Positions 45,001-51,000 of a stretch of DNA of 64,000 nucleotides are shown piece after piece. Made by a program: the position numbers. This stretch comes from an uncultured Methanosarcinales archaeon (lineage in GTDB: Archaea > Nanobdellota > Nanobdellia > Woesearchaeales > ARS49): positions 1 through 64,000 of the forward strand of contig CAYHOF010000006.1 in assembly GCA_964358315.1 (NCBI GenBank). The letters are read 5' to 3'. Numbering within the stretch: the first letter of the stretch is position 1; the number at the start of each line of letters is the position of its first letter.

Positions 45001-48000
45001 ACGCAACGGGACTGCGACGTGTTGCGGCAGCTCTTGGCATGCATCGATGACGACGTGCGGGCCGCGCGGACGATGCGTGGGGACCGCGGCACACGGACGG
45101 TCGAGGACAAAAAGGTCCTCGAAGCACGGCAGAACGACAACCTGCACGTCATCACCGTGATGGCGGATAAAGTGCGGCGCAAGATCGAAACGGAAATCGA
45201 TGTCGTGCAGCGCGCGTTCGAAGCGGCTTCTCGACGGTGAATGCATGCGCTGTGCGGAAGCTATTTAAACGACCCGCTGCCGCGAAAATCTGAGTGAGTG
45301 AAGATGAACGATCTTGAAGGAATGCTCCGCCCTCTTACACCGCTGTCGCACGAGTTGCCAGCGCCGGGATGGGGCTTCAATGACATCGCACGATGGCAAC
45401 CGGATGAGCGTCAGCCCTATGTCAGCAAGTTCGAGACCGTCGCGACGTTGTACGCGATCTTCTCGCCCGCGTTCCCGAGCCCGCAGCGGACGTGGATCCA
45501 GCTCGATCGTCCCGCGAGGTACGCGAATGTGTTGTTGTATCGCGGTTGTGCGCTGCCGGCATTGAAGGACCATTTGCCGATGTCCGACGCCGCGGCTGCG
45601 CTTGCGGACGGTTTCCAGTTGGGCGATGACGAGGACTGGAAGAAGTACTTCGACGACCTTGGCAAGGTGTTGAGCGGCCCGGGATTCCGACGTATCGTGG
45701 TGCCGTACCTGTACTGTTTCGGGATCAACGGCAAGCCTGGACGTTCGACGCTGGCGTTCTACTTGGAGGACGAACAGTTGCGTAAAGGCCTTGGCAAGCT
45801 GTTCGCGCTCGCGGCAAAAGAACGGATGATCGATGAGAACCACATCGTGTGCGTCCCGTACACACGGTAGCCGCAATGATTTTATAGGGTAGCGCTGGCC
45901 CGGGATATCATGAGCAAGTTCGACAAGCAGATCGTATGCGTCAACACCGCCGACCTGCTGGAGGGCCAGTACTTCCAGGGGTTCATGCCTGCGTCGCACA
46001 AGGCGTATGCGGAACGCATCTGCGCCCACATGCACGGCCGCCGGCGCGGCGACGTCGAAGAGGACCCGTCGGTCAAACAACTCGTGGGCTATGCGCTCGT
46101 CGTGCATCCGAACTCAAAAACAGTCTTCGGCTTCCAGCGCAGCGCCGACCAGACCAAGTATTCCGAGAAACGCCTGCACGGCAAGTGGAGCTGGGGCGTG
46201 GGCGGCCACATAGAGTCCATCGACACCGGTGCCGATCCTGTGGCGGCAGGGTTGCGCCGCGAACTCGCCGAAGAGGTCGGGCTCACTGACGGCTACACGC
46301 TCGAACTGCTCGGCTACATCAACGACGATCGCGACCCGATAGGCAAGGTGCACTTCGGCGTCCTGTACCTGGTCAAGGTCGACAAAGCGGACCTGCATCC
46401 AGCGGATGGCGAGCTTGCCTCGGGTGATTTCTTGACGATCGATGAGCTGCGTGAGGTGGCCGCCTCCCCGGACTGCACGGTCGAGGGCTGGTCGCATATC
46501 GCGCTCGAGCCCTGCGCGGCCGTCCTGTCCGGCAAACCCGCCCAACCCAAAAGTTTTTAACCATCCTTTCACAAGAGAAAGCATATGCCAAAATCCAAAC
46601 ACGTCCACCCGGTCGACACGTCGCACATCGTACCTGTCAGTGAAGCCGAAATGATACAGTACATCGGCCTCAAAGACCTCACCGACGACGAGCGCGGGGC
46701 GCTCGAAGAGGTGTGTTCCAAGCATTACGACAAGATCAAACGCCAGATGCACAACATCACATCGCTCACCGTCCACGTCAAGACGCACGGCAGCCACAAG
46801 GACAAGTGCCATGGCGAAGAGGAAGTCGCGGACAAGAAGAAGAAATATTCCATGCACCTGCGCGTCATCGCGCCCACCCACATCTTCGAGTCAGAGGACG
46901 CCGCCTTCGACATCCGCAAGGTCGCCAACGTCGTGTTCGAGCACATGATGAACCAGATCGAGCACAAGTTCCACCACAACGAAGGCGTGGCGAGCAAGCT
47001 CATCTACGACTTCGAGCACCGCCGCGGCGGCCACCAGACCGGGCATAAGTGAGTCGTTTATTCTTTGTAGTTCTTTCTTGAGAAAATGAACGGGCCCTGG
47101 AGCGGCCCGGATATAGCGGGGGATGGATATTCACGCCCTGTACGCGAAGCACATGGGCCTTTTGAACCATCGGTCTACGGGTTATGAGCCCGTCGAGGAC
47201 TCCAGACTCCTCTACCCCGCTGTAAATACTGGAAAACCGTAATCGGTTTATAAGGGTTGTGGCGCCGTATCACGTCTCGGTACATCATGTTTGAGCGTTA
47301 ATTTTCCGACGGAGCCGGAGGTTCTCACAACCCACTGGACACCTCCTCGTGAGCTATATGAATATCGTCGACGCGGGAAGATGCATGAACGCATTAGAGG
47401 CTGAATTCTGCGGTATGCACGCGGGCGACGGGACGTTGTACAGAACAAATGGCAGTTCTATTGTCTGGGAGTTGAGAGGCGGTCTGGATGAGACGGCGTA
47501 TTATCATGAAGTGGTTGTGCCCCTTGTCAAAAAATTGTTTGGTATAGACCTTGTTCCCAAACATCGTTCCGGCGGGGGAAACGGTTCTTTTGGAGTGGTG
47601 TGCTGCAAGAGAAAACTCACTTCGTTTCTCCATTTGGATTTCCCTGTGGGAAGCAAATCAAGGATCGTCCGGGTTCCGTACGATGTCATGATGGGAACAC
47701 ACGACATCAAGGGGGCGTTTTTGCGAGGTCTTTTTGACACAGATGGTTCCTTTCGGCTTGACAAGAATCACACGAGCCGCTATTGCTATCCAAAGATCGA
47801 ATGGTGCACTGCATCACCCGGCATGCTTGAAGACGTCCGCCAACTCTTGCGAGAACTCGGGATCGACCATATCACATGGGACAATCGTGGCTATCATATG
47901 ATTTGCATCAATGGCTTGTCCCGCTTACAGAAATTTATGGACGTCATTTCTTTCCATAACCCCAAACATTTAAATAAGGTCGCGGCGGCGATGAACTTCA

Positions 48001-51000
48001 AGAGGGGGTTGTGCCTGGTTCGGGATCCCTCGATATGCCACCGTGGCACAACCTGGTACTGCGCGGAGGGCTGAAGGATTCGTTCCTCTCCCACGTAAGA
48101 TTGCTAATCCCGTTTCCGAAAGGATTTCCCGGTTCAAATCCGGGCGGTGGCGTTTTATTTTGGCGTTGGTTTCTTGCCGGCTTTATGGCGGTGTTTTCAT
48201 CGTGCGATGATTTTTAAGGGTTAGGCGCATCGCATAAGTAATGGGCCTTCTCGAGCGGTTGTTCGGTCAAGTCGAGCGCGGGAAGCTGCGTTCTGTCAAT
48301 ACGGTGCAATTGTGGAAGTCGTTGCAGGACCAGATCGAGCTCTGGAAAGCGTACGTGGCGACAGTCGATGAAAAAGCAGCGCTCGTCAAGACAGGCGCGC
48401 CTGACATGCGACGATTGTCCGAACTCGTGCGCATGGACATCGTGGATGTTGATACCATCACGACCGATGATGCGATCGTGTTGAAAGAAGTACACTCCTT
48501 AGGCACAGTCATGAGCAGGATGCGTCATATTAATCGGCTCACACGGGCATTGGAATATGAAGAGACGCGGTACACCTACGTGTACAGGCTTCTCAAACAA
48601 CTCCATGAGACGCTTGTTGCAGAAGCCAAACTCGTGGGTCGTCTTGTGTCTGGCGCAAGCGATAAGAGCATGCTTGATGCGCTGAGGGTGCAGGTCAAGG
48701 TCGAGCAGGCGATCGTCGAGAAGATCAAGCGTATGGAGACCGTCGGTACGAGTCCTAACGCGAACAAGTTCCATTATCTTCTTTTGCAATTGCTTGGCGG
48801 CGCACGCGCTGCCGACCGTCTTGAGGAGCAGGAACAACGTGTCCTCGCGCGTCTTGCGCACATCCTCCCTGAAGATGTCCTCAAAAGCGGGAACGTTCCC
48901 AAAGGCATGGCCAAAAAATTCGAGAATTATTGGGTGAATGACATCTTCAGCGTGCTTTGGACGCGTTTGGAAGAGGCAATCGACGACGGCACGCTCGAAA
49001 GCCATCCTGATATCGAGTGGCAGTTCGTCAACAGCGCCCGGTTTGTCGCGCTCGCCAGGGAGTCATACCGGAAAGCGACATATAAGGAACCTGACCCTGC
49101 GCTGCTGCAGGCGTTCGTCACGTATTTCAGGAAGATCTTCAACGAGTCGCGGTAGTGTGTCAAACTCAGGGCAGTTCGATCTCTTTGATCGGTATGTATC
49201 AGTCGACGCACATGAACGATACAGTGCCGTTGTACACGTAGTACTGGCAGCCGCCAGAAAGGGGTTTCCACGCGGCGCAGTGCGCGGTCGCGATGTCGTC
49301 GTTGTCTGCGGTGCAGCCGCTCTCGCACTGGTTCATGTCCGTGCATGGTTTGCCGGCGTCAGAAGTCGGAAGCGCGCATGAGGATGTTGCGCGGAGCGTG
49401 TGCTGTCCCCATCTGCCGCCTTGTGCTTCGCACGCTTGCTGTTCGGGCGTGGCTGGAACGTCCGGGCCTCCGGTTGTTGCAGAGTCCACTTGTGTGATCT
49501 GGAGCGTGACGCTGCCGCTTGATTGTCCGGGCATGACGCCGCCGATGCCTGTCTCTGTCTTGAGGTTCTTGATGAGGTAGGCGCCGATGCCAGTCTCCTC
49601 GCCGACAGCGAGTGTTTTTTTGACGCTGCTGTTCTGCGCCTGCGAAGGGTCGGCAGTTTCGATGATGACTGAGAGGGTCGCTGCGTTCTCCGACACGCTG
49701 ATGATGCCGATGCGCAGGTTCCCGCGGCGGTATTGCGTGCCTTGCGCGACGGTGACGACGTCCGAGTCAGGGGCGGTATTTTCGGTGTCGAGCGTGGGTT
49801 GTGGTGTGCAGCTGATGATGAAGAGCGTGAGAATGATGATGTAGGGAGTGGCGCGCATGTATGCCACGACAGTGTCCGTAGTTAAATACTTTGTTCTTTC
49901 CTCGTCGATGACGGCATACTATTAAATAACGCAGAAACTGTCACGTAGTCATGGTCTCCGCGTTGAAGGCGTTCATGGCCGATGTCGTGGTGCTCGTCGG
50001 CACGTTATTCGAGGTGGGAATATGACGGTGAAGAAAGGGCCTTCGCGCAAGGCGTCCAAGGTCAAGGAACCTGAGGTCATCCGTTTGAGCTTGTTCGGCA
50101 GGCCTGAGGAAGCACAAGAGCCGCGGCAAAAACGCGCGGTCGTGCCCAAGGACGTGGGTCCACGCGCGGAAAGGAAGATGCCATACTATGGCGAGCGGCA
50201 TCCGAAATACGCGTACGCGCGAGGCGAGACCCCGGTCCCTCCAGGTGGTCAGCAGATCCCGCCGCAGTACGGCACGCCCGAACCCGCACAACCTCCCGCT
50301 CAAGTGCCTGCGCAGCCCTCGTCAGGAGCAGGGACGGGGCTCGTCATCACTGGGATCATCATCTTCATCGTCATCATATACGTGCTGCTGACGATGGATG
50401 ATGGCGGGGGAGGGCTCGGCAGCTGTCAGACGAGTTGTGGTCCTGGCGACTATGAAGTGACTGTCGCTCCCCAGTGTTCCTGTCCTGCGGGCAGCAGGTA
50501 TTACAACACGATATCGAACCCTCCGTCGATGGCAGGGTATAAACAATGCATCTGCGGGTGATACTATGGCATTCGTGACCGGACTGTTGTTGTCCGTGAT
50601 GGCATCTTTTGTCGCATTGCTCATCACGTTCAAGTTCTTTCCCAAGTACAGGATGGGCTGGAAGGACAAGCTCGTGATCGCGGCAGCAGGCATCGGCTCG
50701 TTCATCGTGCTTATGTTCCTCGCGTACGTGTACGAGAGTTTCGTGGGCGCACTGGACACGAACACGCGGCCTGCGTTCGGCAGCGTTGCCTTCGAGAACA
50801 CGATGGATTCGATTGGCCAGTGGATGCCCTTCGTCTTCATCGTCCCGATCGTGCTGTCCGTCATGGTGTACACGCTGCAGTGGTCGGGAATGGGGCAGAA
50901 GGATTCGCTCAAGGCCGCGCTAGTGTGGGCCCTCATCACGGCGATACTTTTGGCGCTTTTCGTGAGTGTGAAGTCTGCAGTTGGTGCGTGATGGCGAAAC

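What a model noticed while it worked through the whole genome (the two positions that open the first line are those of the whole stretch)
47114..48153. Free-standing LAGLIDADG endonuclease genes docked on tRNA genes
Three intact stand-alone LAGLIDADG genes (g00554, g01242, g01434; not in an intron or intein) each sit against a tRNA gene; g00554 lies between an initiator tRNA with a T-loop (59/60) intron and a tRNA-Ser(GCU) with an anticodon-stem intron, both missed by the annotation. Across Woesearchaeales such genes abut many tRNA isotypes, cluster by isotype in a tree, and at the initiator tRNA go with the presence of a non-canonical intron. This fits collaborative homing: the endonuclease targets a tRNA gene and a bulge-helix-bulge intron gives immunity and hitch-hikes.
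Evidence so far: Both acidic LAGLIDADG motifs intact. Of 39 free-standing ORFs scored from relatives, most end in or within about 150 bp of a tRNA gene (ARAGORN call 23, sequences call 24). Initiator tRNA loci picked by tRNA sequence alone: endonuclease within 1.5 kb in 9 of 9 intron-bearing vs 1 of 17 intron-less, and 3 of 6 vs 0 of 19 in a second order-wide set; pooled 12/15 vs 1/36, Fisher p=3e-8. The sister species G001 has neither intron nor endonuclease at this tRNA. FastTree of 39 proteins groups them by neighbouring tRNA: Ser, Leu, Gln, Phe pairs 95-100, g00554 with another Ser(GCU)-docked enzyme at 99, seven iMet ones at 88. BHB fold of the iMet intron: call 130.
(Added by a program. 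Inside this text positions count along the whole contig: contig position 1 is position 1 of the stretch shown here. "Call 12" and the like, gene names such as g00115 and contig names such as C1 are that model's own, and its searches are not shown. The text may have been shortened before it was handed on; [...] marks where a part breaks off. The agent that wrote the report below was given it as the finding of a first reader that could run no searches.)

Follow-up and report, generated by a model that had tools for sequence, protein, structure and literature searches.

The report
Homing nuclease paired with tRNA intron
In tiny groundwater archaea an intact DNA-cutting-enzyme gene sits directly in front of the serine tRNA gene, which in most carriers has a short intron at one fixed spot; the enzyme likely cuts intron-less copies of that tRNA gene, so enzyme and intron would spread together, a predicted route for how archaeal tRNA introns arrive.

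Summary
Observation confirmed: an intact double-motif LAGLIDADG gene (47385-48074) lies between an initiator tRNA (59/60 intron) and tRNA-Ser(GCU) (29/30 intron). Its clade docks directly upstream of Ser(GCU): 28 of 35 members have a 29/30 or 30/31 intron there, and the other 7 have altered stem bases. Sampled by tRNA, the enzyme sits at 5 of 14 intron-bearing and 0 of 72 intron-less Ser genes. On an EF-2 host tree about 6 of 8 independent pairs agree and none oppose (p about 0.03). The iMet figure of 12/15 is not reproduced order-wide (12/63 vs 2/84); that link belongs to another clade and to introns at 41-53 (7/13 vs 0/134). The gene's 3' end carries the likely Ser promoter. Its own promoter has a box shared with radA and uvrA. 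Best reading: collaborative homing with a BHB tRNA intron, with base changes as the alternative immunity. Cleavage and lateral transfer are not shown. The scan noted tRNA-docked LAGLIDADG genes before in other genomes.

The parts
47114..47221 (-). initiator tRNA-Met(CAU) gene, divergent from the endonuclease; probably a bystander for this enzyme
   Evidence: fold z -3.65
47128..47160 (-). 33-nt T-loop intron (59/60), BHB; resembles the 59/60 intron of family member G214, which sits beside a different LAGLIDADG gene
   Evidence: best of 8 other 59/60 introns compared, shuffle p 0.028
47247..47254 (-). TATA-like box of the iMet gene, kept at this place in enzyme-free relatives
   Evidence: sequence
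47333..47341 (+). CACTGGACA box upstream of the enzyme's TATA box; also before the radA operon, uvrA and Bro-N genes in this genome
47354..47361 (+). TATA-like box of the endonuclease gene; places the likely start at ATG 47385 (inferred)
47385..48074 (+). free-standing single-chain LAGLIDADG endonuclease gene, 229 aa, D15 and D120 intact; reads through the Ser 5' exon and stops inside the Ser intron
47964..47978 (+). codons for KHLNK that double as a TATA-like box, the likely promoter of tRNA-Ser
48037..48152 (+). tRNA-Ser(GCU) gene, in tandem behind the enzyme; inferred target gene
48067..48098 (+). 32-nt anticodon-stem intron (29/30), relaxed BHB; inferred immunity element

Best explanation
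The gene encodes an intact LAGLIDADG protein sitting directly upstream of tRNA-Ser(GCU), and it is likely a homing endonuclease that would cut intron-less Ser(GCU) genes around positions 24-33, while the 29/30 intron likely protects its own neighbour. Steps: (1) shown: intact fold and acidic residues, clade-wide docking at Ser(GCU), altered tRNA allele in 35 of 35 carriers where the tRNA is visible; (2) inferred: when DNA from a carrier meets an empty, consensus allele, the enzyme makes a double-strand break in the tRNA gene; (3) inferred: repair from the donor copies the enzyme gene plus the resistant allele, either intron-split (28) or substituted (7); (4) inferred: the tRNA promoter inside the enzyme's last codons hinders deletion, and the radA/uvrA-type box times expression with recombination genes; (5) inferred: enzymes decay and leave orphan introns (9 of 14). 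The iMet intron in the window is probably such an orphan of another enzyme.
For: Fold and residues; acidic motifs matched in 35 and 36 of 39 clade members. Clade of 39 with support 99 docked at Ser(GCU). 28 of 35 carriers with stem intron; A27 in 5 of the 7 others vs 2 of 72 background. tRNA-first 5/14 vs 0/72, p 6e-5; without this genome 4/13, p 4e-4. Host tree: 8 carriers need 8 changes, pairs 5.7 same, 0 opposite, median p 0.031. Replicates: iMet 7/13 vs 0/134 for introns at 41-53; a separate small clade upstream of Ser(GGA) with 29/30 introns in 2 of 3 and another intron in the third. BHB helix 3.69 of 4 pairs vs 0.36-1.9 when shifted, 42 rows. Same-genus G201 lacks enzyme and both non-canonical introns. 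Embedded TATA: Leu codon TTA in 25 of 26 vs 0.36 in the same ORFs and 3 of 13 in the convergent iMet clade. No match to the rejoined 22-bp junction with under 5 mismatches in the own genome. Broken copies exist (stops in some rows).
Against: No cleavage data. Lateral movement not shown: the AU test does not reject host-congruent grouping (p 0.205), the enzyme is as conserved (52%) as flanking genes (50-54%) against its two closest relatives, and no clade member was found in viral contigs (best E 2e-9). The two closest relatives have no 29/30 intron. 115 of 201 genomes gave no scorable Ser gene because the patterns need a consensus D-loop, which also hides some variant alleles from the background. 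Three of the 8 carriers on the host tree were added enzyme-first. Other clades (His, Gln, Arg, Phe) show no fixed intron. Only one 176-aa EndA gene was found, and how it handles non-canonical introns is open.
Confidence: 0.66

Rival explanations
1. Intronless homing with a passenger intron: the enzyme cuts at or near the Ser locus, immunity comes from its own insertion or from base changes, and the intron rides along by co-conversion or descent without protecting anything.
For: Seven carriers lack the intron, including the two nearest relatives. His, Gln and Phe docked enzymes mostly lack fixed introns. Intron sequences look alike within enzyme subclades (by eye).
Against: The insertion point lies upstream of the tRNA promoter, in sequence not conserved between families. 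Every intron-less carrier has stem substitutions. Two intron positions (29/30, 30/31) and unlike intron sequences occur in one clade.
Confidence: 0.17
2. Ancient vertical resident with no present mobility: enzyme and intron were fixed in an ancestor and lost many times, the gene being retained partly because it carries the tRNA promoter.
For: AU p 0.205; identity on a par with flanking genes; GC3 0.59 within the genome's range; no viral copies.
Against: Needs dozens of losses: 8 carriers scattered among 89 genomes. Enzyme identity does not track EF-2 identity (rho 0.27, p 0.17). A 15-bp promoter does not explain retained acidic residues.
Confidence: 0.09
3. Domesticated DNA- or RNA-binding factor (WhiA-like regulator or maturase) serving the neighbouring tRNA.
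For: WhiA and maturase structures appear among fold matches; weak PF14527 score; host-type box in the promoter.
Against: Nine of 14 intron-bearing and all 72 intron-less Ser genes have no such enzyme upstream. No added domain. Both Asp kept. Patchy and sometimes broken.
Confidence: 0.05
4. One reading: the enzyme targets the initiator tRNA and the 59/60 intron protects.
For: Divergent neighbour at about 160 bp; in the family 5 of 5 intron-bearing iMet genes have a LAGLIDADG gene nearby.
Against: The clade follows Ser(GCU). The two nearest relatives sit beside intron-less iMet. 58-60 introns rarely have the convergent enzyme (2/16).
Confidence: 0.03

Closest known systems
Collaborative homing: F-CphI beside the intron-bearing psbA of cyanophage S-PM2 (PMC6083498, passages read)
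   Same: Free-standing endonuclease next to a conserved gene whose enzyme-less intron blocks self-cleavage.
   Different: There an Endo VII-type enzyme, a group I intron, a protein gene and a phage, with cleavage shown; here LAGLIDADG, a 32-nt BHB intron, a tRNA gene and an archaeal chromosome, cleavage not shown.
Pog.S1213 / Pog.S1205 in Pyrobaculum oguniense 16S rRNA (PMC4496867, passages read)
   Same: Archaeal homing endonuclease that cuts at the site of a neighbouring short hairpin intron and co-converts it.
   Different: That enzyme is encoded inside an rRNA intron 8 nt away; here the gene is free-standing, outside any intron, and the target is a tRNA.
SegB of phages T4/T6, intronless homing in tRNA regions (PMC2988022, PMC13096335, passages read)
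   Same: Free-standing endonuclease associated with and cutting within tRNA genes; T4 free-standing genes also embed promoters of downstream genes.
   Different: GIY-YIG, many loose sites, no isotype preference reported, no tRNA introns; here one clade per isotype and a fixed intron position.
I-Tsp061I and I-DmoI, single-chain archaeal LAGLIDADG enzymes
   Same: Fold (best match 2dch, E 2.3e-10), two acidic motifs, size.
   Different: Those are intron-encoded; 14-19% identity.
Intron gain models for archaeal tRNA: transposition in Thermoproteales, protection from viral integration (PMC4090602, passages read), integration of a recombinase element (PMC3293823, abstract read)
   Same: tRNA introns as recent gains that may shield a conserved DNA target.
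   Different: The agent here would be a homing nuclease, with no integrase, and no tRNA remnants at this locus.

Membership tests
LAGLIDADG homing endonuclease (single-chain) | Two LAGLIDADG helices with acidic residues and the alpha-beta-beta-alpha-beta-beta-alpha fold | tested here: met
LAGLIDADG homing endonuclease (single-chain) | Site-specific double-strand cleavage of a long target | not testable with these tools
   needs purified protein
Free-standing homing endonuclease | Optional gene outside introns and inteins, absent in relatives | tested here: met
Free-standing homing endonuclease | Lateral spread by gene conversion | tested here: inconclusive
   scattered on the host tree but AU p 0.205; none in viral contigs
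Collaborative homing | Adjacent conserved gene carries an enzyme-less intron at a fixed site tied to the enzyme | tested here: met
   28/35; 5/14 vs 0/72; host-tree pairs p about 0.03
Collaborative homing | The intron interrupts the recognition site and blocks cleavage | not testable with these tools
   indirect only: substitutions at 27 or 30-31 in intron-less carriers
Archaeal BHB tRNA intron | Four-pair central helix with two 3-nt bulges at the splice sites | tested here: met
   iMet 4 of 4; Ser 3 of 4 here, mean 3.69 over 42 rows
Archaeal BHB tRNA intron | Removal by EndA | not testable with these tools
   one 176-aa EndA gene present
WhiA-type domesticated regulator | Loss of catalytic acidic residues, added HTH domain, vertical ubiquity (recalled) | tested here: not met
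tRNA-integrating element | Integrase or recombinase gene and duplicated tRNA fragment | tested here: not met
   no remnant above shuffles, lowest p 0.16; no such ORF at the locus

The most novel reading that the evidence does not exclude
Woesearchaeota carry a radiation of tRNA-specific homing endonucleases, one clade per tRNA, and for several tRNAs the non-canonical intron sits at the enzyme's cut site (Ser 29/30, iMet 41-53). Homing would then be a driver of non-canonical tRNA intron gain and spread in archaea, switched on with the host's recombination genes and anchored by capturing the tRNA's promoter.
Probability: 0.45. Interest if true: 0.88.

Novelty: new variant of a known kind. Interest (0 to 1): 0.74.

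Why it matters
How archaeal tRNA introns arrive and spread is open: a 2014 review calls the mechanism of intron transposition unknown (PMC4090602, passages read) and a 2026 preprint on Asgard tRNA introns found no general route and does not contain the word 'homing' (10.64898/2026.10.13.758758, passages read). This locus gives one enzyme, one tRNA and one position, so a single cleavage assay can test a route. It would also extend collaborative homing from phages to cellular tRNA genes and supply many compact meganucleases with predictable targets.

Tried and rejected
iMet as this enzyme's partner: rejected. Off-target protection as the reason for the 29/30 intron in this genome's Ser(GGA): rejected, since Ser(GGA) 29/30 introns occur in family members G213 and G216 and have their own enzyme clade. 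Leftover tRNA fragments around this gene, a lead from earlier scan notes: none above shuffles, although G079 shows a broken intron-bearing Ser copy before an intact one. Viral carrier: none in IMG/VR. Transfer test by AU: not significant. A first 30-genome pair test was underpowered (2 same, 0 opposite, p 0.5). His alleles beside enzymes differ in the acceptor stem, but host lineage confounds this. Unconstrained folding of the Ser precursor is not better than shuffles (z -0.80). No RNA holder listed. Contigs of 4 DNA runs show no joint skipping the gene. Three ORFs beside intron-bearing iMet genes that looked nuclease-like by eye (L043, L054, L068) had no Pfam match and were counted as enzyme-free. 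The loose 9-base box is not enriched genome-wide (104 vs 71-95 shuffled); only its placement before TATA boxes is.
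Full report
Anatomy. The window is contig C6 of a 1.4-Mb genome; named homologues point to Woesearchaeota. 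The ORF 47385-48074 matches PF14528 (E 3.5e-13). Its model (pLDDT 89.4) is closest to I-Tsp061I (E 2.3e-10), and both motifs keep Asp. An intron-tolerant aligner with ARAGORN checking gives iMet on the minus strand (33-nt intron, 59/60) and Ser(GCU) on the plus strand (32-nt intron, 29/30). The ORF reads through the Ser 5' exon and stops in the intron; that tail has low confidence in the model. In the genome, non-canonical introns were found in 3 of the 42 tRNA genes listed: iMet, Ser(GCU), Ser(GGA).

Docking. Of 189 enzyme-first loci, 154 had at least 200 bp on both sides; 132 lie within 150 bp of a tRNA, 100 by a strict call. The Pfam-first subset gave 17 of 24, intein loci 0 of 29, random segments 3.1%. 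In a FastTree of 211 proteins, 14 isotype groups need 16 changes against 84.6 shuffled; 82 rows were in no group. One row labelled Ser(GCU), L169, proved to be Ser(GGA). The window's protein lies in a 39-member clade (support 99) placed in tandem upstream of Ser(GCU).

The partner is Ser(GCU). In 35 of the 39 the tRNA is visible; 4 are cut off or truncated. 28 have an intron at 29/30 or 30/31. The other 7 all differ in the stem: A27 in 5, changed 30-31 in the rest, against A27 in 2 of 72 background genes. Those 7 are about five lineages. Sampling by tRNA in 201 genomes: one search gave 28 matches, of which 14 were Ser(GCU) with a 29/30 intron, 1 a fragment and 13 not tRNA; one search gave 72 without a stem intron; 115 genomes were not scorable. 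The clade's enzyme stands upstream in 5 of 14 and no LAGLIDADG gene lies within about 1.5 kb in any of the 72 (7 have under 300 bp upstream). Fisher p is 6e-5, or 4e-4 without this genome. Three more of the 14 have enzymes of other clades nearby. For kinship I built an EF-2 tree of 89 genomes: 84 of the 86 (one dropped for lacking flank, one without EF-2) plus 3 enzyme-first carriers and 2 family members. The 8 carriers need 8 changes. Of 8 independent pairs the intron goes the same way in 5.7 and never the other way, median p 0.031. The introns fit BHB geometry: 3.69 of 4 helix pairs against 0.36-1.9 when shifted, over 42 rows that include 3 false hits.

The iMet claim. Order-wide, 147 of 201 genomes were scored: 12 of 63 against 2 of 84, p 0.001; one of the two has an acceptor-stem intron the aligner missed (seen). 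The signal is positional: a convergent enzyme flush with the 3' end occurs in 7 of 13 genes with introns at 41-53 and 0 of 134 others; 58-60 introns give 2 of 16. The window's iMet intron resembles that of G214 (p 0.028), where another clade sits at the 3' end, so it is probably an orphan.

Two control elements. The conserved KHLNK end is written with TTA in 25 of 26 Leu codons (0.36 elsewhere in these ORFs; 3 of 13 in the convergent iMet clade). It matches the TATA region of enzyme-free Ser genes. In the window it is the best promoter-like site upstream of Ser, 73 nt away, with nothing at the usual 36-39. The longer distance in carriers (mode 53) is unexplained, so the promoter role is inferred. 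T4 free-standing genes embed downstream promoters too (PMC2988022, passages). Upstream, a CACTGGA word occurs in 51 of 162 enzyme leaders against about 1 expected. In this genome the box precedes a TATA box at 12 sites, among them this gene, the C22 enzyme, uvrA, Bro-N genes and an operon whose 328-aa ORF I read as RadA from its sequence. Earlier scan notes describe the same box.

Against. There is no cleavage evidence. Transfer is unproven: AU p 0.205, enzyme identity to its two nearest relatives equals that of flanking genes, and viral contigs hold no clade member. Those two relatives lack the intron. His-docked enzymes have no intron in 21 of 22, and Gln, Arg, Thr, Leu and Phe show no fixed site. 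So the general rule is 'docked on a tRNA with an altered allele', and the intron version holds for Ser(GCU), part of iMet and probably Ser(GGA).

Literature. Eight searches found no paper on free-standing LAGLIDADG genes at archaeal tRNA genes; the library lacks most subscription journals. Passages read: PMC6083498, PMC2988022, PMC13096335, PMC4496867, PMC4090602, 10.64898/2026.10.13.758758. Abstract and outline only: PMC3293823. Search listing only: PMC5829648, PMC6125680. No supplements were read; those of the preprint were not available and may bear on mobile genes near tRNAs. The Pyrobaculum S1213/S1205 pair is the nearest archaeal precedent.

Unpublished genomes. G183 is one of the 14 intron-bearing Ser genomes and is in the host tree and protein tree; G112 and G132 are among the 147 iMet loci; G121 and G132 give one protein each to the tree; G209 was fetched and entered the pooled locus scans, but is in no tRNA-first count. 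Their data may not be published without permission.

Verdict. A real and well-patterned system that works like collaborative homing, with new parts (LAGLIDADG, BHB tRNA intron, cellular archaeal chromosome). New variant of a known kind; mechanism 0.66; interest 0.74.

Noticed in passing
window 47333-47341 and 60222-60230; G000 C13, C16, C10, C15, C22: CACTGGACA box at fixed spacing before TATA boxes of uvrA, the radA operon, Bro-N genes and two endonuclease genes; the copy at 60222 precedes a short unannotated ORF.
   Followed up: partly
window 226-322: tRNA with a canonical intron that ARAGORN calls Tyr but that splices to Thr(UGU); C12 'Ala(UGC)' likewise splices to Ile(UAU).
   Followed up: partly
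G000 C19:19496-19663 (L443): Ser(GGA) with two introns (29/30 and canonical) and no enzyme beside it; its intron begins like the Ser(GCU) intron.
   Followed up: partly
L144, L044, L169, upstream of the enzyme ORF: Ser(GGA)-docked enzymes have a short copy of the tRNA D-arm sequence just upstream of their start: a possible operator half-site or tRNA remnant.
   Followed up: no
L363 (G079 C18): Truncated Ser(GCU) copy with 29/30 and 37/38 introns directly upstream of an intact intron-less copy.
   Followed up: partly
G000 C2:74470-75040 (L495): Only one 176-aa EndA gene found although the genome has non-canonical introns; a divergent second subunit may be missed.
   Followed up: partly
L202-L322 His-docked loci: His-docked enzymes have long open frames (mostly 340-440 aa), and the neighbouring His genes often have a mismatched acceptor stem.
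   Followed up: partly
L054, L068: Related unknown ORFs beside intron-bearing iMet genes, no Pfam match, one apparently frameshifted.
   Followed up: partly
window 46585-47052: Ribosomal_S30AE-like gene (weak, E 0.005) that lies next to iMet in several families.
   Followed up: no
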